Source of the DNA: a virus
Reading direction: 5' to 3' (one strand)
Virus genome (UHGV): UHGV-0103790
DNA: 47,038 nt
Shown: piece after piece, positions 8,976 to 42,117 of the stretch
How positions within the stretch are numbered: the stretch's first letter is position 1
How the letters are laid out: each line of letters starts with the position of its first letter
Program-made: the position numbers and the translations under genes
The notes under the pieces: model-generated
Seen by the model: only the letters and a program-made list of their open reading frames with translations
What the model was told of the DNA's origin: nothing
The model's database searches: none

Positions 8976-9455
8976 TTATTTGATGATCAGCTTTGGTTTT
9001 CCATCGGTGATGGCACAACCTTTAATTTCAGTTCCGGCTTTCAGTGCCGCTTTAATGGCTGCATTATCTGCCGAAAATTTTACAACGCGATACTGCTCTG
9101 GCAACTGCTCAACCGGGACAAGCACATCCAAAACAGGAGATGGTTTGCCAAGCGTGATGCTGAACAGCTTGCCTTTGATGTTCGTTTTTCCAGATGCCAG
9201 AATGTTCTGACGAAGATAATCTTTCAGGTTATCTATCTTCGCAGTTAGCACCCGCTTGCGTTCTGACAGACGGTCAATCTCAGCCTTCATGCCAGCTTCA
9301 TCCGCCTCAAGCTCGCTGATATAAGCGGCAACCATCTCGGCCTTTCCTTCAAACTCCTCCTCAATCAGGTTAATGGTGTCTTCAATCTGCTCGCGTGGAA
9401 TATCTTCCATCGCAAGCAGTTCGTTAAGCTGTTTCGTTATTTCGTAAAGACGCAT
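8976..9455 (-). CDS. Gp157-family protein (Sak4-associated)
   Basis: N-terminal coiled-coil with an acidic region, length ~160 aa, immediately downstream of a Sak4-like ATPase. Confidence 0.5.
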   Translation of the reverse strand: MRLYEITKQLNELLAMEDIPREQIEDTINLIEEEFEGKAEMVAAYISELEADEAGMKAEIDRLSERKRVLTAKIDNLKDYLRQNILASGKTNIKGKLFSITLGKPSPVLDVLVPVEQLPEQYRVVKFSADNAAIKAALKAGTEIKGCAITDGKPKLIIK

Positions 9456-10284
9456 AATACTTAATCTCTGTCAGAAGTGGATTTTCGCCTTTATCAAACT
9501 GAATCTCAGGTTCAAGGTTGAAGCGATTTTTCGCATTAACGTAACCAACCCGGCCATCACCAGAGGTGACAAGTACACGCTGCCCAGTCTGCACAACCTT
9601 ACCGAACTTAGTTACCTGCCCTTTTTTATCTGTCTCAGTACCCTTCACAAACTCCTCATTGCGGATATAGATAACAGCATCGCTAAGCGCAACGTAACCA
9701 TCAATACTGGCTTCGTGCATGTTGAGAGTGTAAACGGTGTACTCGTCAGAATCAGGTCGGTTCTTCATCTTACGTATGCCAGCATGCGCAAGATAAATGA
9801 TGCTCATCCCTTTGTTAGAGCGAAGATACTTGCATGCGTTAATAATTTCAGCATGCATCTCAGCCACAACCAGATAGCCCTTGTTGTAACCACCAGCTGC
9901 TGCTCCAACGTTATCTACTCCATAGTTTTCGCAAACCTCATGCTCAAACATGGCGTGGAGGCTGGTGATAGAGTCGATAACCAGAGTTTTATAGTCATGC
10001 TCTTCTGTGATAAGAGCGCGCAACTGCGACAACAAGTCTTCTTTTGTACTCGTCTTGCGCTTTGCATCAGCTCGTTTCAGTACCGGGAATGAATCAGGCT
10101 TGTTTTCTTCGTCCCAGTCGTCGAATACGCCGGTAATCTCTTCCGCCTGAATGAAAACAGGCTTAGGAAAAAGCGCTGCCAGAGTCGTCTTGCCAACGCC
10201 AGGGGTGCCAACAAGAGTAATGATAGGTGCAACTGGTTTTGGTTTTTGAATCATTGATAAGCTCATAATGTCCTCTCGAATCAC
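9424..10284 (-). CDS. Sak4-like RecA-fold ATPase (ssDNA annealing / recombination)
   Basis: Walker A LVGTPGVGKTT at the N-terminus, ~286 aa, RecA-like core. First gene of the minus-strand replication/recombination operon. Confidence 0.7.
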   Translation of the reverse strand: MIREDIMSLSMIQKPKPVAPIITLVGTPGVGKTTLAALFPKPVFIQAEEITGVFDDWDEENKPDSFPVLKRADAKRKTSTKEDLLSQLRALITEEHDYKTLVIDSITSLHAMFEHEVCENYGVDNVGAAAGGYNKGYLVVAEMHAEIINACKYLRSNKGMSIIYLAHAGIRKMKNRPDSDEYTVYTLNMHEASIDGYVALSDAVIYIRNEEFVKGTETDKKGQVTKFGKVVQTGQRVLVTSGDGRVGYVNAKNRFNLEPEIQFDKGENPLLTEIKYYASLRNNETA

Positions 10285-15189: not shown

Positions 15190-15474
15190 ATGGATATCGA
15201 AATTAACGAAGTTCAGGAAATTATTAAAAATCTTGAGAGCGTTGGTGAAATCTCAATCAAAGAGGGAAAATACCTCAAGGTGGCAAAGCTGTGCGTGCAG
15301 CTGGCTGCGGAGAATGTGGCGTTGAAGGAGGCATGTGGCGGCAATGGAAGTTATCGCAACTGCCCAGCTTGCACATTCTCTGAATACATTGAGGCACCGG
15401 AAACCCCCGCCACCGATCGCATTGTTGAGGTAAACATTCCTCGCGCCTCTGGCATCAAGGTGGAGGCTGAGTGA
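15190..15474 (+). CDS. hypothetical protein
   Basis: 94-aa ORF with RBS GAGGA. Its stop overlaps the start of the next gene (TGATG). Confidence 0.5.
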   Translation: MDIEINEVQEIIKNLESVGEISIKEGKYLKVAKLCVQLAAENVALKEACGGNGSYRNCPACTFSEYIEAPETPATDRIVEVNIPRASGIKVEAE

Positions 15475-15854
15475 TGGCACTAACCAAAAAACAGCGCGCA
15501 GAACTGCGCATGAAGTTTGGCGGGCGCTGCGCTTACTGTGGCTGTGAGCTTGGCGATAAATGGCACGCTGACCACGTCGAAGCAGTACGAAGGAATATCA
15601 GCAATGGCTACGCAATGGACCGGCCTGAAAACGATACGGTCAGCAACATAGTTCCAGCATGCATACCCTGCAACCTGTTCAAAATGTGCAGCACGGTTGA
15701 GGATTTTCGCAATCGCATTGCAACTCAGGTTGATGTGACTCGCCGGGCATCGAGAAGCTACCGCACAGCTGAATCATTCGGCCTGGTTCAACCAACTAAC
15801 GCGCCGGTAGTATTCTGGTTCGAAAAGTATCAGTCAGAAGGAGCCAACCAATGA
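15474..15854 (+). CDS. HNH endonuclease
   Basis: CAYCGC...HADH...N...PACIPCN HNH motif set. ATG at 15474. Confidence 0.7.
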   Translation: MALTKKQRAELRMKFGGRCAYCGCELGDKWHADHVEAVRRNISNGYAMDRPENDTVSNIVPACIPCNLFKMCSTVEDFRNRIATQVDVTRRASRSYRTAESFGLVQPTNAPVVFWFEKYQSEGANQ

Positions 15855-16938: not shown

Positions 16939-17094
16939 TGCCGCAAAAATCAAAGCAGGAGGTGTGGCAGAAGGCTCGGCTAGAAGGCGTCGACCGCTTC
17001 ATAGCAGCAATCGCCAAAGCCTTTCCTGATGCTATTGAGGTGGTTCATGTTAAATCCCCACGCAATGATTTGTGGTGCAGGAGCGGTAAGTGTG

Positions 17095-17580
17095 ATGAAA
17101 AGAATAGACTGGAATGAGCTGTTTGAATACAACAACGGAAACCTGATATGGCGCGAGGATGATGGCCGCAAGGCAAGAAAAGGTAAGGTTGCAGGCCACT
17201 CAGGGTCAAAAGGATATACATCTATTTGGTGCTCTGGACGAAAATACTTTGCGCACAGAATCATATGGGAAATGCATAATGGCCCTATAACTGGCGGATT
17301 GGAGATTGACCATATAAACCATAACCCTGGTGATAACAGGATTGAAAATCTCAGGCTGACAAATAGGGGAGGGAATCTAAAAAACAAATCCAAGTACTCT
17401 AGCAATAGTAGTGGAGTAACTGGGGTACACTGGAGGAAGGATAAGCGAAAGTGGCAAGCAAAAATAAGGGTTAACAAGAAGTTCATACATCTTGGATATT
17501 TCAACGACATACTTGATGCGGAGCTGGCAAGAAAGAAAGCAGAAGAAGAGTATGGGTTTCACGATAATCATGGTGTATAA
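17095..17580 (+). CDS. HNH homing endonuclease with AP2-like DNA-binding domain
   Basis: IDHINHNPGDNRIENLRL HNH motif. C-terminal SGVTGVHWRK...HLGYFND...AELARKKAEEEYG AP2-type domain. ATG at 17095 with RBS AGGAG. Paralog of 41632-42117. Confidence 0.8.
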   Translation: MKRIDWNELFEYNNGNLIWREDDGRKARKGKVAGHSGSKGYTSIWCSGRKYFAHRIIWEMHNGPITGGLEIDHINHNPGDNRIENLRLTNRGGNLKNKSKYSSNSSGVTGVHWRKDKRKWQAKIRVNKKFIHLGYFNDILDAELARKKAEEEYGFHDNHGV

Positions 17581-17614
17581 TAGTTTCATCGATCATCACC
17601 TCACCACCCTTTAA

Positions 17615-17640
17615 GCCAGCATTGCGCTGGCTTCTTTTTT
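17615..17640 (+). terminator. rho-independent terminator
   Basis: GCCAGC-attgc-GCTGGC hairpin followed by TTCTTTTTT. Confidence 0.65.
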
Positions 17641-17652
17641 ATCTACGCCATG

Positions 17653-17661
17653 TGGTAAGAT
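17653..17661 (+). promoter_or_regulatory. extended -10 promoter (TGgTAAGAT) for the packaging operon
   Basis: TGGTAAGAT directly after an ATCTACGCCATG motif copy. The predicted transcription start lies downstream of the ATG at 17662, which favours the ATG at 17698 as the small terminase start. Confidence 0.4.
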
Positions 17662-17697
17662 ATGTCCTATGTGAGTTACTTAAAGGACACATATAAA

Positions 17698-18138
17698 ATG
17701 GCAAATCCGAACCCTAAGCACAAATTTTCATCCAGTAATCAGCCACCACCAAGAGGAAAAAGCTACAGAACAGTGCTTCTTGAAGCATTGCGCGCTGCAA
17801 ATACGCCGATGAATGAGATTGAATTCGTCACGTACTACATCAACAAGGCGATGACATGCGAAGATGCTCAGGCTACCGGCATGCTGCGCGAAATATTCCT
17901 GCGACTGAACCCAATTCCAAAACCTGTAGCGCCTCCTGTTGAGTTTGATTTCCCTGCCGACGGCACACCTGTACAGAAGATGGATGCGATTATCAAGGGC
18001 GTCTCTACTGGCGTTGTTCCAGCCGACATTGGCAAGATGATGGCAGACATTCTGAAGGCTGGGCTTGATATCGAAGAAGTAACAGAGCTCGCCGCACGCC
18101 TTGAGCGACTGGAGAAATTACTGGAGCAGCAACAGTAA
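17698..18138 (+). CDS. putative terminase small subunit
   Basis: Immediately upstream of the large terminase. Basic N-terminus, C-terminal coiled-coil. RBS AAAGGA. Confidence 0.45.
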   Translation: MANPNPKHKFSSSNQPPPRGKSYRTVLLEALRAANTPMNEIEFVTYYINKAMTCEDAQATGMLREIFLRLNPIPKPVAPPVEFDFPADGTPVQKMDAIIKGVSTGVVPADIGKMMADILKAGLDIEEVTELAARLERLEKLLEQQQ

Positions 18139-18237
18139 CTGATTTATAATAATCAATGCGGCTAGGGGGCACCCGAAAAGCGACTCATCACCGCCTGCCG
18201 CATTCACTTCAATGATGCCCTGATGAGGAATCTATAT

Positions 18238-20757
18238 ATGGCACGCAAAAGACTCTCAGCACCAGCAATTGAAAAACTCGAAGAGATTATTGGCGATGGC
18301 GTGATTGATGCGCCTGAATCTGCGGTGTTCGGTGTTGTTAATACAGATAAGCAGATTGTTCGCAAACTAAAAATGACGCAAAGCGGAGTTGATGACGTTA
18401 GCGACTCTGATATTGGCGTTGATCACCTGATACCAGAAAAGCTGGAAAAGCTACTTTACCCCAAGCGTAATAAGATTGTGTTTGGCGGGCGCGGATGCTT
18501 AGCCATCGGCACGATGGTGAGGATGTTTGATGGTAGCCTAAAACGCGTAGAGGATATCGTTGTTGGCGATAAGGTTATGGGTCCAGACAGTAAACCACGA
18601 AATGTTTTAAACATCTGTCGGGGGTTTGATGACATGTATACGGTTCATCAAAAATATGCTGATGACTACACTGTCAACTCAAGTCACATACTGTCATTAC
18701 GAAAGATTCCATCTGCTATCAGTGACGAGACAAAAACACCGGATGGTAAAAGAATTTATCGTTATTACCCGAATGAACCTGTAATACTGAATATTGGTGT
18801 TTCAGAATATTTGTCGCGCGCAACTTCCAAAAAGTTCCGCCATGTCTTTAAAGGGTGGCGAACAGGATGGGATTTTAATGACCAAAGCGTCCCAGTTGAC
18901 CCGTACTTTCTTGGTTTATGGTTAGGTGATGGTTCATCTCGTGGTGTTGAAGTGTGCACGCCTGATCCAGAGATAGTTGACTACATTCACAACGTGGCAA
19001 GCAAATACGGGATGCAGGTAAAGGTTCGCGACGATGATAGATGCCCTGTCTATGCGATAACTAATGGTCGAGCTGCTGGCATGGGGAAGAACACCAACCC
19101 GTTACTAACTAAAATGCAGCAGCTTGGGGTGATTAATAATAAACACATACCTGACTGCTATATCAAAAACAGCAGAGAGGTAAGACTTCAGATTCTGGCT
19201 GGGCTATTGGATACTGATTCGCATTATGACCAGAAAAAGAAAAGCTATTCTTTCACATCAATAAATAAAGAAATGGCCTTCTCTTTGATGGATGTGGCAA
19301 GATCGCTTGGCTTCAAGTCAAGCATAATCAAAAAGACTGATGTCACCTTTGAATATAAAGGTGAGAAAAGAATATACGAAAAGGACGTATGGGAGGTGTT
19401 CGTTAGTGGTGACCTTCATACAATCCCATGCCGAGTAAAAAGGAAGATAGCAGAGAAAACCAAGTCAACCCGTGGAAAGATGACTGAGGTGTCATTGTCT
19501 TATGTCGGGCATGGTGAATACGCTGGGTTCACTATTGATGGCGATCATCTTTTCCTGCTTGCTGATGGCACGGTTACACACAACAGCGGAAAAACAAGGA
19601 CAGTAACAACAATACTTACGGAGCGTGCACGCTTTAAGCCTGACAGGATAGCTTGTTTTCGTGAGATTCAGCAGTCTATTGAGGATAGTTCATATCAGGA
19701 GCTGAAAGACGAGATTGACAGGAAGGGCGAGACAAAAGAGTTTCGCGTCATCAACAACGAAATAACACACAAGGTAACGAAAGCAAAGTTCCGCTTTAAA
19801 GGCCTGTATCGCAACCAGACGACCGTAAAAGGCTTCGCTGGCATTACAGTAGCTTGGGTCGAGGAGGCGGAAAACGTCAGCCAGACAAGCTGGGAAATCC
19901 TCACCCCAACAGTCCGCGCTGAAGGGTCAGAGATATGGGTGACTTTCAACCCAAATAAAGAGCATGACCCGACGTGGAAAATATGGGTTGAGCCTTTTTA
20001 TAATAAATTGCGCGAAAATGGCGGCATCTATGAGGATGATGAAAACCTGATTATGGAGTGTAATTACTCAGACAATCCGTGGTTCTGGGATACTCCGCTC
20101 CCAAGCCAAATGCAACGCATGAAAGAGACCGACTTCGACCGCTATCAATGGGTGTGGGGTGGGCGCTTTAATAAGCGTAATGATGAGCAGGTATTTGGCG
20201 GTAAGTGGCGCGTTGCTGATTTCGAGGTTAAGCCGGAATGGCATGGGCCTTACTTTGGCATCGACTTTGGATTCTCGCAGGACGCAACGGCGATGGTTGA
20301 GGTTTACATTGAGAAACTTCCTGATGACCGCCGCAACCTTTACGTCGCGCGCGAATACGGCCGTGTAGGCCTTGAGATTACCGACACACCTACAGCGATG
20401 GAGCAATCATTCCCACTCTCCAGGAAGGCAAGATGGTATGGGGACTGCTCTCGGCCAGAAACAATCAGTCACATCAAACGCGCAGGATTTGATATCCATC
20501 CATGCAATAAGTGGCCCGGGAGCGTGGAGGATGGTGTAACCTGGCTCAGGGGTTGCGACAGCATCATCATTCATGACCGCTGCACACAGACTCAGGAAGA
20601 GTTCACTATGTACAGTTACAAGGTGGACAAGTTGACGGGTAACGTGCTCACAAATATTGTGGATGCGTGGAACCACTTCATTGACGCAATCAGATATGCA
20701 TGCAACGATCACATCGTACAGCGTGGCTCTGGATGGATTAGAAGGAGCAGGAGATAA
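18238..20757 (+). CDS. terminase large subunit, intein-containing precursor
   Basis: Walker A split as ...FGGRG | intein | SGKTRTV. C-terminal nuclease-like region. ATG at 18238 with RBS GAGGA. Confidence 0.8.
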   Translation: MARKRLSAPAIEKLEEIIGDGVIDAPESAVFGVVNTDKQIVRKLKMTQSGVDDVSDSDIGVDHLIPEKLEKLLYPKRNKIVFGGRGCLAIGTMVRMFDGSLKRVEDIVVGDKVMGPDSKPRNVLNICRGFDDMYTVHQKYADDYTVNSSHILSLRKIPSAISDETKTPDGKRIYRYYPNEPVILNIGVSEYLSRATSKKFRHVFKGWRTGWDFNDQSVPVDPYFLGLWLGDGSSRGVEVCTPDPEIVDYIHNVASKYGMQVKVRDDDRCPVYAITNGRAAGMGKNTNPLLTKMQQLGVINNKHIPDCYIKNSREVRLQILAGLLDTDSHYDQKKKSYSFTSINKEMAFSLMDVARSLGFKSSIIKKTDVTFEYKGEKRIYEKDVWEVFVSGDLHTIPCRVKRKIAEKTKSTRGKMTEVSLSYVGHGEYAGFTIDGDHLFLLADGTVTHNSGKTRTVTTILTERARFKPDRIACFREIQQSIEDSSYQELKDEIDRKGETKEFRVINNEITHKVTKAKFRFKGLYRNQTTVKGFAGITVAWVEEAENVSQTSWEILTPTVRAEGSEIWVTFNPNKEHDPTWKIWVEPFYNKLRENGGIYEDDENLIMECNYSDNPWFWDTPLPSQMQRMKETDFDRYQWVWGGRFNKRNDEQVFGGKWRVADFEVKPEWHGPYFGIDFGFSQDATAMVEVYIEKLPDDRRNLYVAREYGRVGLEITDTPTAMEQSFPLSRKARWYGDCSRPETISHIKRAGFDIHPCNKWPGSVEDGVTWLRGCDSIIIHDRCTQTQEEFTMYSYKVDKLTGNVLTNIVDAWNHFIDAIRYACNDHIVQRGSGWIRRSRR
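18496..19584 (+). mobile_element. intein (363 aa) with LAGLIDADG homing endonuclease domain inside the terminase P-loop
   Basis: Begins with Cys (CLAIGT) and ends with THN followed by Ser. Two LAGLIDADG-type motifs, LGLWLGDGS and LAGLLDTDS. Removal restores GGRGSGKT. Confidence 0.8.
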
Positions 20758-20761
20758 GAAA

Positions 20762-20790
20762 AAGCCCCGTTGCCGGGGCGGTTTGGTTAC
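20762..20790. terminator. terminator between convergent genes
   Basis: GCCCCG-ttgc-CGGGGC hairpin with a weak T tract (GGTTTGG). Confidence 0.45.
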
Positions 20791-21059
20791 TTGATATTTT
20801 CCCAGTGATTTATTGCGTCACTCTTGTTTTGGTAGCTTTTCACCATGCGCCAGGTTTTTACCATCTTCCCGCGCGAATAGTTTTCGCAAAGCACGTATAC
20901 CTTATAAGTGTCTGCAACAACTTTTTCAGTGCATTCAGCAGCAACATCGTTAGGGATGCCATCTGGTTTGCGAAAGAACTCAACGTGGTGATGAGCAACA
21001 GCATATTTCTTTCCGTTTTTTGCTGTTTTCGCTTTACTAATCCAGTTTTCAATATTCAT
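20787..21059 (-). CDS. hypothetical protein
   Basis: ATG at 21059 with RBS GAGGT (MNIENWISK...). The listed longer ORF has an upstream alternative start. Confidence 0.45.
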   Translation of the reverse strand: MNIENWISKAKTAKNGKKYAVAHHHVEFFRKPDGIPNDVAAECTEKVVADTYKVYVLCENYSRGKMVKTWRMVKSYQNKSDAINHWENIK

Positions 21060-21149
21060 CGATTTAACCTCACTCACCGGCGGCGCCATTGCCACCTCAA
21101 TGACTTCAATCTACACCAACCACAAATCCACGTCAATATTTATAATAAA

Positions 21150-21439
21150 TTATTTGTAAAGCCAGCAATGAATTCCCACATTGCGCATGGCCGCATAAAT
21201 AACATCATCAGACACGACAGCCATTGCCACCCTGTCAGCGTCAATCTGCTGATGGGATGTCATGATGTCATCATAAAAACATCGTTAGCATGCAGCCACT
21301 CATACGCATGCTTTGCCCTCATAATTAGCACATCGTGACCGGCAGAGTAGAGCGACTTAGCCAGCGCAACGTTGCCAGCAATGGCATTACCCTCAGCATC
21401 GCGCAGCACGCCATCAAGCTCGAAAATGACACATTTCAT
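21150..21439 (-). pseudogene. HAD-like (deoxyribonucleotidase-like N-terminus) gene split by an 8-bp tandem duplication
   Basis: MKCVIFELDGVLRD resembles HAD motif I. An exact ATGACATC ATGACATC tandem repeat at the junction changes frame between the 59-aa (21260-21439) and 37-aa (21150-21263) pieces. Removing one copy fuses them. Confidence 0.35.
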
Positions 21440-21465
21440 AAGATTTCTCCGAGAGGTTTCATTTT

Positions 21466-21494
21466 AATCTACGCCATGCTAGAATCTACGTCAA
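21466..21494. promoter_or_regulatory. divergent promoter region carrying two conserved-motif copies
   Basis: Minus strand: TTGACG (reverse complement of 21489-21494), 17-bp spacer, TAGATT. Plus strand: extended -10 TGCTAGAAT (21477-21485). Motifs AATCTACGCCATG and AATCTACGTCAA. Confidence 0.5.
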
Positions 21495-21528
21495 GGCGCA
21501 TTGACATAACTACATCACCAGGGGCATC

Positions 21529-39169: not shown

Positions 39170-39246
39170 TGGTTCCCGCGACAGGATTCGAACCTGTAAT
39201 CATCCGATTATGAGTCGGGTGCTTTAACCAGTTAAGCTAAACGGGA
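39170..39246 (-). tRNA. tRNA-Met (anticodon CAT; could be Ile2 if lysidinylated)
   Basis: 77-nt cloverleaf on the minus strand. Acceptor TCCCGTT/CGCGGGA, D-stem GCTT/AAGC, anticodon loop CTCATAA, T-arm ACAGG-TTCGAAT-CCTGT, 3' ACCA. Confidence 0.7.
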
Positions 39247-39249
39247 ATT

Positions 39250-39326
39250 TGGTGCACCATACTGGATTCGAACCAGTTACCGATTGCTTAGAAGGCAATT
39301 GCTCTATCCTGATGAGCTAATGGTGC
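39250..39326 (-). tRNA. tRNA-Arg (anticodon TCT)
   Basis: 77-nt cloverleaf on the minus strand. Acceptor GCACCAT/ATGGTGC perfect, D-stem GCTC/GAGC, anticodon stem ATTGC/GCAAT with loop CTTCTAA, T-arm ACTGG-TTCGAAT-CCAGT, 3' ACCA. Confidence 0.8.
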
Positions 39327-41383: not shown

Positions 41384-41635
41384 TCATACACACTCATCAA
41401 GCTGACGGCGCAACATGCATAGCGCACCGCGTGGCATTGCCTGGCGACTCACGCCGTCGAAAATCTTCCGGTTGAGGTAATTGGTCACTCGCGGCCTGAT
41501 AGCCTGCCAGCACGCCTTAATGCTGCCATTTACCGGTCGGCGCTCGAGCATGGCGAACTTTGCATATAGTTCCAGCGTCACCAGTGCATCAAGGTATTGC
41601 TCGCAGGCATAGCGATTTTCGTTATCCATCATCAT
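41384..41635 (-). CDS. hypothetical protein
   Basis: 83-aa ORF with ATGA overlap to the HNH gene. Confidence 0.45.
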   Translation of the reverse strand: MMMDNENRYACEQYLDALVTLELYAKFAMLERRPVNGSIKACWQAIRPRVTNYLNRKIFDGVSRQAMPRGALCMLRRQLDECV

Positions 41636-42117
41636 TTACCATGGTTCTCATGAAAATCATACTTAACCTCCGCCTTTCTCCTTGCTTCAGCGGCCATATT
41701 TAAGTCAGAAAACAATCCAAGATGAATCTTTACGCCATCAACTTTTATGTTTGAGGCCCATTTTTTATGTTGTTTACCCCATGAAACACCAGTAACACCT
41801 GATTTGTTTGTCACCCTGAACTTCATGTTGTGATTATTCTCTTTTGGAGTGACAAGCCTGAGGTTATCTATCTTATTGTTTGTTTTATTGTGGTCTATAT
41901 GATCAATCTGCATTCCGTCAGGAATTTTCCCATTATGCATTTCCCAGATGATGCGATGAACAAGATACTTGACGCCATAGATTCCAACAATCTTATATCC
42001 ATTGCCTCCCACCGCCTTCACCTCGCTTCCGATTTTCACTCTGTTTGAGGTTCTTATCTTCCAGTAAATAGCCCCATCACAATAATAAAAAATATCTGAC
42101 CAATCAGTTATTTTCAT
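41632..42117 (-). CDS. HNH homing endonuclease with AP2-like domain (paralog of 17095-17580)
   Basis: IDHIDHNKTNNKIDNLRL HNH motif. C-terminal SGVTGVSWGK...HLGLFSD...AEARRKAEVKYD AP2-type domain. 161 aa, the same length as its paralog. Confidence 0.8.
   Translation of the reverse strand: MKITDWSDIFYYCDGAIYWKIRTSNRVKIGSEVKAVGGNGYKIVGIYGVKYLVHRIIWEMHNGKIPDGMQIDHIDHNKTNNKIDNLRLVTPKENNHNMKFRVTNKSGVTGVSWGKQHKKWASNIKVDGVKIHLGLFSDLNMAAEARRKAEVKYDFHENHGK

What the first reader, a model, noticed from the sequence alone, without database searches (positions are those of the whole stretch)
18496..19584. LAGLIDADG intein inserted in the Walker A P-loop of the large terminase
The terminase ORF reads ...KIVFGGRG then CLAIGT... 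for 363 aa ending ...DGTVTHN, then SGKTRTV. Excision restores a canonical GGRGSGKT P-loop. The insert starts with Cys and ends with His-Asn followed by Ser. It has two dodecapeptide motifs, LGLWLGDGS and LAGLLDTDS. It is therefore a homing-endonuclease-containing intein at a catalytically essential site. Together with two AP2-HNH genes and a small HNH gene, this genome carries at least four homing-type elements.
Basis: seen in the sequence. Interest (0 to 1): 0.6.

Follow-up and report, generated by a model that had tools for sequence, protein, structure and literature searches.

The report
Homing intein splitting a phage terminase
The DNA-packaging motor gene of this phage is interrupted, inside its ATP-binding loop, by a self-splicing protein element (an intein) that carries its own DNA-cutting enzyme; this is a known kind of selfish element, here unannotated and apparently spread between phage genera together with neighbouring terminase sequence.

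Summary
Window 18496-19584 (+) encodes 363 aa in frame inside the large terminase gene (18238-20757). It starts with Cys, ends with His-Asn and is followed by Ser. Removing it restores GGRG|SGKT, which aligns without a gap to the Walker A loop of phage Sf6 terminase. Pfam, PDB sequence search and an AlphaFold model (pLDDT 92.7) all identify a PI-SceI-type intein: a Hint splicing domain plus a two-motif LAGLIDADG endonuclease, with all catalytic residues present.

The closest intein-less terminase (Klebsiella phage KP591P1) has an exact 363-aa gap at this point. I found 24 copies (18 DNA alleles) in isolates and metagenomes. All are intact, with dN/dS of 0.1-0.3.

The intein sits in a foreign tract of about 1.7 kb (~18120-19800). 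This tract is 92-100% identical to Salmonella phage Segz_1, whose genome is otherwise 65-78% identical. Its 3' end differs between phages, which suggests repeated transfer. The insertion point (G|SGKT) is three residues upstream of the classic GK|S/T site used by most relatives.

Terminase P-loop inteins are already known, so this is a new, unannotated member of a known kind and of moderate interest.

The parts
18238..18495 (+). N-extein of the large terminase (86 aa, ends ...KIVFGGRG). This 'type I' variant was found only in intein-carrying alleles.
   Evidence: it is 99-100% identical at the amino-acid level among 5 intein+ phages and only 57-59% identical to 7 intein-less relatives; all 19 further loci with a complete copy of this N-extein carry the intein. 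GC3 is 40.7 against 56.0 in the C-extein.
18496..19584 (+). Intein, 363 aa (41.1 kDa), class 1, PI-SceI type: a Hint splicing domain interrupted by a LAGLIDADG homing endonuclease.
   Evidence: Pfam. PI-SceI at 5e-21 end to end. AF2 pLDDT 92.7 and Foldseek PI-SceI at 3e-28, TM 0.73-0.76. Exact 363-aa gap in KP591P1 TerL.
18496..18519 (+). Block A, with Cys1, the nucleophile for the N-S acyl shift.
   Evidence: C1 is invariant in the 62-sequence alignment.
18676..18699 (+). Block B (NSSHILSL) with His64.
   Evidence: H64 is invariant and N61 nearly invariant in 62 relatives. Its role as the block B His follows from established intein chemistry.
18910..18936 (+). First LAGLIDADG motif (LGLWLGDGS), with catalytic Asp145.
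   Evidence: It aligns with LGLWIGDGL of PI-SceI. D145 is invariant.
19195..19221 (+). Second LAGLIDADG motif (LAGLLDTDS), with catalytic Asp241. The last residue is Ser where relatives have Gly.
   Evidence: It aligns with LAGLIDSDG of PI-SceI. D239 is invariant, and D241 and G242 are nearly invariant in relatives.
19138..19152 (+). NKHIP, containing Lys216, the counterpart of PI-SceI active-site Lys301.
   Evidence: Alignment. K216 is nearly invariant.
19435..19449 (+). VKRKI, containing Lys317, the counterpart of PI-SceI Lys403.
   Evidence: Alignment. R316 and K317 are nearly invariant.
19519..19584 (+). Blocks F and G (YAGFTIDGDHLFLLADG TVTHN), with penultimate His362 and terminal Asn363.
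   Evidence: H362 and N363 are invariant. This stretch aligns to the C-terminus of PI-SceI.
19585..20757 (+). C-extein of the large terminase. It starts with Ser+1 (AGC), continues with the rest of Walker A (SGKT), then the ATPase and the RNaseH-like nuclease domain.
   Evidence: Pfam Terminase_3 and Terminase_3C. Sf6 gp2 and SPP1 G2P nuclease in PDB.
18120..19800 (+). Approximate extent of the foreign tract around the intein: the TerS-TerL leader, the N-extein, the intein and about 220 nt of the C-extein.
   Evidence: Against intein-less KP591P1 (backbone ~91-95% identical), identity falls to 25-80% over 18120-18495 and to 62-85% up to ~19800. Against Segz_1 (backbone 65-78%), the same span is 92-100% identical. 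The boundaries are approximate to about 40-60 nt.

Best explanation
Window 18496-19584 encodes a canonical class 1 intein of the PI-SceI type, inserted in frame in the Walker A (P-loop) of the phage's only large terminase gene, between Gly86 and Ser87 (GGRG|SGKT). The gene is translated as a 96.4-kDa precursor that cannot bind ATP, because the P-loop is split by 363 residues. The intein then removes itself in four steps. Cys1 forms a thioester. The N-extein is transferred to Ser+1. Asn363 cyclises, assisted by His362, and releases the intein. An O-N shift then leaves a normal peptide bond. The products are a 55.3-kDa terminase with an intact GGRGSGKT loop and a free 41.1-kDa protein. The free protein is a monomeric two-motif LAGLIDADG endonuclease. 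During mixed infection it is expected to cut intein-less terminase alleles at the insertion point, so that repair copies the intein and flanking terminase sequence into the recipient (homing with co-conversion). Shown here: the anatomy, the family assignment, conservation of all catalytic residues, the exact empty site in relatives, purifying selection, and mosaic tracts centred on the intein. Inferred: that splicing occurs (the terminase is essential, there is no second copy, and several carriers are cultured phages), and that the endonuclease is still active.
For: Anatomy and family. All class 1 residues are present (C1, H64, H362, N363, S+1), as are both LAGLIDADG Asp residues and the counterparts of PI-SceI K301 and K403.

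Exact insertion: KP591P1, VLCpiS13a/c, GP-1, MK54, swi2 and C1 terminases lack exactly these 363 aa. The spliced sequence aligns contiguously to Sf6 gp2, GGRGSGKT against GGRGSGKS. The Pfam Terminase_3 score rises from 109.8 to 126.8 bits.

Essential host gene: there is no second terminase or intein in the window.

Maintenance: 24 copies and 18 DNA alleles, with no stop or frameshift. dN/dS is 0.11-0.20 for the whole intein in the three most divergent pairs (0.10-0.32 over all pairs), and 0.15-0.25 for the endonuclease part.

Mobility: Segz_1 is 65-78% identical genome-wide but 92-100% identical over ~18120-19800. dS is 0.07-0.18 in the tract and saturated (>3) in the distal C-extein. The 3' end of the shared tract lies at about +100 nt in pIS4-A and KpV2811, and at about +240 nt in the window, L026, Segz_1 and ST65. 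GC3 of the N-extein and intein (41-43) is lower than that of neighbouring genes (50-62). Carriers fall in three genera: Roufvirus, Segzyvirus and Macdonaldcampvirus.

Precedent: mycobacteriophage TerL P-loop inteins splice and cut intein-less alleles (PMC5050341).
Against: No experiment shows splicing or cleavage for this element. No intein-less allele with the same flanks (a cognate empty site) was found in viral contigs, metagenome contigs or GenBank phages. The sampled intein-less alleles differ at 15-20 of 40 nt around the site, and many also in the Ser+1 codon class (AGC against TCN). Present-day homing targets are therefore not demonstrated. The mosaic tracts could come from ordinary homologous recombination near a fixed insert. 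The last residue of the second LAGLIDADG motif is Ser where nearly all relatives have Gly. The intein interior (92-98% identity to Segz_1) is slightly more diverged than the immediately flanking extein DNA (98-100%), which a single recent transfer does not fully explain.
Confidence: 0.9

Rival explanations
1. The element is a splicing-competent intein, but its endonuclease is inactive or has no remaining targets. The element is fixed in one terminase lineage and is now inherited vertically or moved only by ordinary homologous recombination.
For: Every type-I N-extein found carries the intein, and no cognate empty site exists in three collections. Sampled intein-less sites differ at 15-20 of 40 nt. 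There is a Gly-to-Ser change at the end of motif 2.
Against: The endonuclease part has dN/dS of 0.15-0.25, not about 1. Both catalytic Asp and both Lys counterparts are kept. None of the 24 copies is degraded or reduced to a mini-intein. The tracts are centred on the intein and have different 3' ends in different phages.
Confidence: 0.3
2. The 363 aa are a permanent, non-splicing domain insertion in the terminase (for example an accessory nuclease or DNA-binding module), or a BIL/Hint domain that only cleaves.
For: None found, beyond the absence of experimental splicing data.
Against: The insert separates GGRG from SGKT, residues that form one continuous ATP-binding loop in Sf6 gp2. The full set of splicing residues, including the +1 Ser, is conserved in 24 of 24 copies. 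The end-to-end alignment is to a proven splicing intein. Intein-less orthologues function without the insert.
Confidence: 0.02
3. The interruption is removed at the RNA level (a group I or II intron with an intron-encoded LAGLIDADG gene), not at the protein level.
For: LAGLIDADG genes also live in group I introns, and terminase introns exist in other phages (PMC10448857).
Against: The reading frame is continuous through both junctions. The Hint domain and the splice-junction residues are those of an intein. There is no intron family hit in Rfam even at E<=1 over 17000-21500.
Confidence: 0.01
4. The interruption is an assembly or chimera artefact of this window.
For: None.
Against: The same structure is present in 7 independently sequenced isolates and in 19 IMG/VR and metagenome contigs, with 18 distinct DNA alleles.
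Confidence: 0

Closest known systems
PI-SceI (Saccharomyces cerevisiae VMA1 intein; PDB 1vde, 1dfa, 1lws)
   Same: The two align end to end from Cys1 to the terminal His-Asn (5e-21). PI-SceI is the best structural match (3e-28, TM 0.73-0.76). Both combine a Hint domain with a two-motif LAGLIDADG endonuclease. The catalytic Asp pair and the counterparts of Lys301 and Lys403 are conserved. Both sit in an ATPase.
   Different: This intein has 363 aa against 454. The region corresponding to PI-SceI residues ~56-205 is about 70 residues shorter, so the DNA-recognition region is reduced. Identity is only ~23%. The +1 residue is Ser rather than Cys. The host is a phage terminase rather than the V-ATPase A subunit. 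No biochemistry is available.
Mycobacteriophage TerL P-loop inteins TerL1-a and TerL1-b (Kelley et al. 2016, PMC5050341)
   Same: These are also inteins in the Walker A loop of the ATPase domain of a phage large terminase. In that system splicing, endonuclease activity on intein-less partner alleles and a sporadic distribution were shown experimentally.
   Different: Those hosts belong to the Terminase_1 or Terminase_6 families in actinobacteriophages. Here the host is a Terminase_3/PBSX-family terminase of an enterobacterial siphophage. TerL1-a is at the classic Lys|Thr position, whereas this one is at Gly|Ser, three residues upstream. Sequence relatedness to those inteins was not tested here.
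Helicase P-loop inteins of Jersey-like Salmonella phages and Klebsiella phage JD001 ('intein containing helicase precursor')
   Same: These are the closest annotated phage relatives of this intein (37-40% aa over the full length). They have the same architecture and also lie inside a Walker A loop.
   Different: The host protein is different (a helicase). They are inserted at GGGK|T, the classic site, not at G|SGKT.
Metagenomic Terminase_3 inteins (P0005, P0022, P0023, P0054)
   Same: They have the same host family (PF04466) and the same intein clade (36-41% identity). They are the nearest neighbours in an unsupported NJ tree.
   Different: They are inserted at GSGK|S or GGGR|S, three residues downstream of this one. 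The exteins are different.

Membership tests
Class 1 (canonical) intein | Cys, Ser or Thr as the first residue | tested here: met
   Cys1 (TGC, 18496-18498). It is invariant in 62 relatives.
Class 1 (canonical) intein | Block B with a conserved His (TxxH-like) | tested here: met
   N61-S-S-H64. H64 is invariant and N61 nearly invariant.
Class 1 (canonical) intein | C-terminal His-Asn followed by a Ser, Thr or Cys +1 nucleophile | tested here: met
   H362-N363 followed by Ser (AGC, 19585-19587). The same is seen in all 24 copies.
Class 1 (canonical) intein | Hint fold | tested here: met
   Pfam Hom_end_hint at 1e-20. AF2 model with pLDDT 92.7, matching PI-SceI, the VMA inteins and the Prp8 mini-intein.
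Class 1 (canonical) intein | In-frame insertion whose removal restores a conserved host motif, with intein-less orthologues showing an exact gap | tested here: met
Class 1 (canonical) intein | Protein splicing demonstrated (precursor converted to ligated exteins plus free intein) | not testable with these tools
   Inferred only. The single essential terminase gene occurs in cultured phages.
LAGLIDADG homing endonuclease (intein-borne, monomeric two-motif type) | Two LAGLIDADG motifs, each with a catalytic acidic residue | tested here: met
   LGLWLGD145GS and LAGLLDTD241S, aligned to the PI-SceI motifs. The terminal Gly of motif 2 is Ser here.
LAGLIDADG homing endonuclease (intein-borne, monomeric two-motif type) | Endonuclease fold (two alpha-beta-beta-alpha-beta-beta-alpha halves) | tested here: met
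   Pfam Hom_end and LAGLIDADG_3. Foldseek matches to the PI-SceI endonuclease domain and to I-DmoI.
LAGLIDADG homing endonuclease (intein-borne, monomeric two-motif type) | Site-specific cleavage of the intein-less allele | not testable with these tools
   No cognate empty site was found in silico. Sampled intein-less sites differ at 15-20 of 40 nt.
LAGLIDADG homing endonuclease (intein-borne, monomeric two-motif type) | Population signature of homing: sporadic distribution and co-conversion of flanks | tested here: inconclusive
   The distribution is sporadic across three genera, and mosaic tracts are centred on the intein with variable 3' ends. Ordinary recombination is not excluded.
Large terminase, Terminase_3 / PBSX family | [quoted passage not shown] | tested here: met
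   PF04466 at 126.8 bits (cut-off 23.2) and PF17288 at 52.9 bits (cut-off 26.7) on the spliced protein. TIGR01547 at 126.9 bits against 105.05. Sf6 gp2 at 6e-40.
'Classic' P-loop intein insertion site (between the invariant Lys and the Ser/Thr of GK[ST]) | Intein inserted directly after the Walker A Lys | tested here: not met
   The insertion is after Gly86, i.e. GGRG|SGKT. Of 64 complete relatives, 53 are at GK|[ST] and 9 at G|[ST]GK like this one.

The most novel reading that the evidence does not exclude
The unit that moves may not be the intein alone. It may be a cassette of about 1.7 kb (~18120-19800) that drags a complete, divergent N-terminal segment of the terminase and the upstream leader with it. 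In that case intein homing would be the engine that swaps terminase N-termini between phage genera. The intein clade to which it belongs would hop between two Ser/Thr-preceding positions of Walker A loops (GK|S/T and G|SGK) in unrelated ATPases. A further unexcluded possibility is that splicing is conditional and times activation of the packaging ATPase.
Probability: 0.3. Interest if true: 0.55.

Novelty: new member of a known kind. Interest (0 to 1): 0.35.

Why it matters
Annotation. The terminase of Roufvirus, Segzyvirus and Macdonaldcampvirus phages (pIS4-A, pYD38-A, KpV2811, Segz_1, ST44/46/65) is deposited as an 839-aa 'terminase' with no intein feature. Terminase phylogenies and packaging-type predictions that use the unspliced sequence will be distorted.

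Biology. Klebsiella hosts both intein-carrying phages (KpV2811) and close intein-less relatives (KP591P1, VLCpiS13). This gives a tractable natural system for measuring intein homing and co-conversion in lytic phages. The mosaic tracts indicate that the terminase locus, which also carries sporadic HNH genes, is a hot spot of gene exchange.

Tools. A compact 363-aa Cys1/Ser+1 intein with an intact endonuclease, and the Gly|Ser-Gly-Lys insertion context, may interest protein engineers.

None of this changes current understanding of inteins.

Tried and rejected
1. Empty cognate site. An exact or degenerate junction DNA pattern in viral contigs gave 0 hits. Peptide scans with the N-extein in viral contigs (13 loci) and metagenome contigs (8 loci) found only intein-carrying copies, one type-II intein-less locus and one truncated contig.

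2. Bacterial genomes. The best relatives of the intein were only 32% identical, in two MAGs, so no prophage source was identified.

3. Intron alternative. The Rfam scan at E<=1 found no intron family.

4. Exclusive link between the int-alpA-like RNA match and the intein. It looked exclusive in 12 loci. It was rejected when the same 99-nt leader turned up at 99-100% identity in intein-less IME207, Sf11 and Bas81.

5. Idea that a canonical SGKT loop is specific to intein alleles. This was rejected because intein-less swi2, IME207 and Sf11 also have GGRGSGKT.

6. Phylogeny of insertion-site type. The NJ tree on BLOSUM distances is star-like and has no support values. I use it only as a hint.

7. 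MAFFT nucleotide alignment of whole genes misaligned the KP591P1 N-extein. I replaced it with codon- and protein-guided comparisons.

8. The large protein database returned no full-length 839-aa relatives, only two fragments. Copy counts therefore rest on the DNA collections.

9. AP2 domain in the HNH_3 genes. Pfam does not support it.

10. Literature. No paper in the searchable library links 'intein' with pIS4-A, KpV2811, Roufvirus or Segzyvirus.
Full report
**1. The observation**

Translating window 18496-19584 on the + strand gives 363 codons, CLAIGTMVRM...LLADGTVTHN. The segment lies in frame inside a single ORF, 18223-20757. Annotated homologues start at the ATG at 18238. The residues before it are ...PKRNKIVFGGRG and those after it are SGKTRTVTTILT.... 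Both quoted dodecapeptide motifs are present: LGLWLGDGS at 18910-18936 and LAGLLDTDS at 19195-19221.

**2. What the insert is**

- Pfam places three families on the 363 aa, all above their curated cut-offs: Hom_end_hint (1e-20), Hom_end (1e-10) and LAGLIDADG_3 (4e-8). The flanks match Terminase_3 and Terminase_3C.
- A sequence search of PDB gives the yeast VMA1 intein PI-SceI at 5e-21. The alignment runs from Cys1 to the terminal His-Asn. It matches both LAGLIDADG motifs and the positions of PI-SceI Lys301 and Lys403, which are Lys216 and Lys317 here.
- In an alignment with 61 relatives the invariant columns are C1, G13, H64, L66, G140, L143, D145, G236, D239, P311, G344, H362 and N363. N61, K216, D241 and K317 are nearly invariant. 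By established intein and LAGLIDADG biochemistry, these include the residues needed for class 1 splicing: Cys1, the block B His, and the penultimate His with the terminal Asn. They also include the residues needed for DNA cleavage.
- One deviation stands out. The last residue of motif 2 is Ser where nearly all relatives have Gly.
- An AlphaFold2 model built on that alignment is confident (pLDDT 92.7, pTM 0.90). Its best PDB matches are PI-SceI (3e-28, TM 0.73-0.76). Next come the archaeal VMA inteins, PI-PfuI and, for the endonuclease half, I-DmoI.
- An RNA-level alternative has no support. The frame is open through both junctions, and Rfam finds no intron family even at E<=1.

**3. The host site**

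After in-silico excision the 476-aa protein aligns without a gap to the solved terminase of phage Sf6 (gp2, 4idh, 6e-40). The match across the junction reads kivfGGRGSGKTrtv against kvakGGRGSGKSwai. The Pfam Terminase_3 match lengthens from profile positions 12-201 to 3-201, and its score rises from 109.8 to 126.8 bits. NCBIfam assigns the PBSX terminase family.

The closest intein-less terminase is that of Klebsiella phage KP591P1. It has an exact 363-aa gap and reads GGRG|SSKT. Six further intein-less relatives show the same gap, with SSKT, SGKT, STKT or SAKT.

There is no second terminase and no second intein in the window. Predicted masses are 96.4 kDa for the precursor, 55.3 kDa for the spliced terminase and 41.1 kDa for the free intein.

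**4. Which phages carry it**

The window is 97-98% identical over the terminase gene to three phages:
- Aeromonas phage pIS4-A and Vibrio phage pYD38-A (Roufvirus)
- Klebsiella virus KpV2811

It is about 90% identical to two further groups:
- Salmonella phage Segz_1 (Segzyvirus)
- Salmonella phages ST44, ST46 and ST65 (Macdonaldcampvirus)

All of them carry the intein, and none is annotated as carrying one.

Scans with the N-extein peptide found 12 more copies in IMG/VR and 7 in metagenome assemblies. Among the 24 copies analysed (the window, 4 reference phages and these 19 contigs) there are 18 distinct DNA alleles. None has a stop codon or a frameshift, and all keep Cys1...His-Asn|Ser.

Pairwise dN/dS for the intein is 0.11-0.20 against the most diverged copies, and 0.15-0.25 for the endonuclease part alone. 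Both activities therefore appear to be under purifying selection.

**5. Evidence that it moves**

Genome-wide, the window and Segz_1 align at only 65-78% identity. From about 18120 to about 19800 they are 92-100% identical. Synonymous divergence is 0.07 in the N-extein, 0.18 in the intein and 0.13 in the first 270 nt of the C-extein. It is saturated (>3) in the rest of the C-extein.

The reverse pattern holds for intein-less KP591P1. Its backbone is about 91-95% identical to the window. Identity collapses to 25-80% over 18120-18495 and recovers only gradually to about 19800.

All five intein-carrying reference phages share one N-extein ('type I', 99-100% aa identity). All seven intein-less relatives examined at that stage share another ('type II'). 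Type II is 57-59% identical to type I, even though their C-exteins are up to 98% identical to the window's.

GC3 is 40.7 for the N-extein and 42.7 for the intein. It is 50.3 for TerS, 56.0 for the C-extein and 61.7 for the portal gene.

The 3' end of the shared tract differs between carriers. It lies at about +100 nt in pIS4-A and KpV2811. It lies at about +240 nt in the window, L026, Segz_1 and ST65.

Together these data indicate that the intein entered this phage group with flanking terminase DNA from a lower-GC donor. They also indicate that it has been exchanged more than once between genera. That is the expected footprint of homing with co-conversion, but ordinary recombination around a fixed insert would leave a similar one.

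**6. Caveats on present-day homing**

I found no intein-less allele with type-I flanks in three collections:
- GenBank phages
- Viral contigs
- Metagenome contigs

Sampled intein-less sites differ from the reconstructed target at 15-17 of 40 nt, including the Ser+1 codon class, AGC against TCN. A third allele type (IME207, Sf11) shares the AGC-GGA-AAR core but still differs at 15 of 40 nt. Whether the enzyme has any current target is therefore open.

The intein interior is slightly more diverged from Segz_1 than the immediately adjacent extein DNA. I cannot fully explain this.

**7. Relatives and insertion site**

The nearest other inteins are only 35-44% identical. They sit in a wide range of P-loop NTPases:
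- phage helicases (JD001, Jersey-like Salmonella phages, Touem01, PS65A.1)
- DnaB and thymidine kinase
- PhoH and AAA_24
- ABC ATPases and dTMP kinase
- RecA, RuvB and Clp
- zeta toxin
- four metagenomic Terminase_3 proteins

Of 64 complete examples, 53 are inserted at the classic GK|[ST] position and 9 at G|[ST]GK[ST], as here. The other Terminase_3 inteins use the classic position, three residues downstream of this one. An unsupported NJ tree places this intein next to two of them and scatters the G|SGK type. That hints at repeated shifts between the two sub-sites, but the tree is star-like and carries no support values.

**8. Comparison with what is known**

Inteins in terminases are well documented, including in the P-loop. 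Kelley et al. 2016 (PMC5050341) describe TerL1-a and TerL1-b in the Walker A motif of mycobacteriophage terminases and showed splicing and endonuclease activity. Novikova et al. (PMC4760082) list terminase inteins, including the PBSX/XtmB family in prophages, and describe the P-loop as a recurrent intein site.

No paper in the searchable library mentions an intein in pIS4-A, KpV2811, Roufvirus or Segzyvirus. I therefore class this as a new, unannotated member of a known kind.

Its particular features are:
- the host family and phage group
- the non-classic Gly|Ser sub-site
- the strict linkage to a divergent N-extein within a mosaic tract of about 1.7 kb

**9. Verdict**

| Claim | Confidence |
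|---|---|
| Intein that splices to restore the terminase P-loop | about 0.9 |
| Endonuclease still active | about 0.6 |

Interest is moderate (0.35). The element is textbook in kind, but it is a clean and experimentally accessible case, with population-level traces of mobility in lytic enterobacterial phages.

Noticed in passing
window 18155-18218 (+): A full-length match to Rfam RF02996 (int-alpA RNA, 42.6 bits against a gathering score of 35.8) lies in the 100-nt gap between the TerS stop and the TerL start. It is present in all 4 intein+ reference loci and absent from 8 intein-less loci. However, the same 99-nt leader is 99-100% identical in intein-less IME207, Sf11 and Bas81. The MFE fold is not unusual (z = -1.1), and no covariation test is possible because the copies are nearly identical. 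Its function here is unknown.
   Followed up: partly
window 17029-17580 (+): An HNH_3 endonuclease gene (66 bits) lies directly upstream of TerS. Window 17055-17570 is an insertion relative to KP591P1. The gene is present in only 4 of the intein+ contigs and, at 97.8% aa identity, in intein-less phage MK54. It therefore looks like an independently mobile free-standing homing endonuclease gene. Pfam does not support an AP2 domain (E 6.2).
   Followed up: partly
window 41632-42117 (-): A second HNH_3 endonuclease gene (80 bits), 45% identical to the one at 17029-17580.
   Followed up: no
window 15471-15854 (+): A small ORF (127 aa) with a CxxC...H...N...CxxC pattern that only just reaches the Pfam HNH cut-off (21.6 against 21.4 bits).
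   Followed up: no
L041:544-1059 (IME207), L042:3085-3615 (Sf11), L043:541-1056 (Bas81): In these intein-less relatives an HNH endonuclease gene sits between the same leader sequence and TerL, starting at the position of the window's TerL ATG. The TerS-TerL junction therefore hosts three different endonuclease-type insertions across this phage group.
   Followed up: partly
L002:2737-4167 and other intein-less terminases (L012-L014, L016, L017, L030): Close intein-less relatives have a deviant Walker A in which the residue before the Lys is Ser, Thr or Ala rather than Gly (GGRGSSKT, GGRASTKT, GGRGSAKT).
   Followed up: no
L002:2592-2747; equivalent window region 18120-18240: Intein-less type-II relatives have an annotated ~51-aa ORF overlapping the TerS end and the TerL start. 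The window and the other intein carriers lack it and have the non-coding leader instead.
   Followed up: no
window 19685-19825 (C-extein +100 to +240): A patch where the window differs from its closest relatives pIS4-A and KpV2811 (82-83% identity, dS 0.5-0.7) but matches Segz_1 and ST65 (97-100%). It marks a recombination boundary inside the terminase gene.
   Followed up: yes
window 39170-39326 (-): Two adjacent tRNA genes, tRNA-Met(CAT) and tRNA-Arg(TCT). KP591P1 has these two plus a tRNA-Ser.
   Followed up: no
window 9424-10284 (-): An AAA_24 ATPase gene. Relatives of this intein occur in AAA_24 P-loops elsewhere, but this copy matches AAA_24 contiguously and has no match to the intein.
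   Followed up: no
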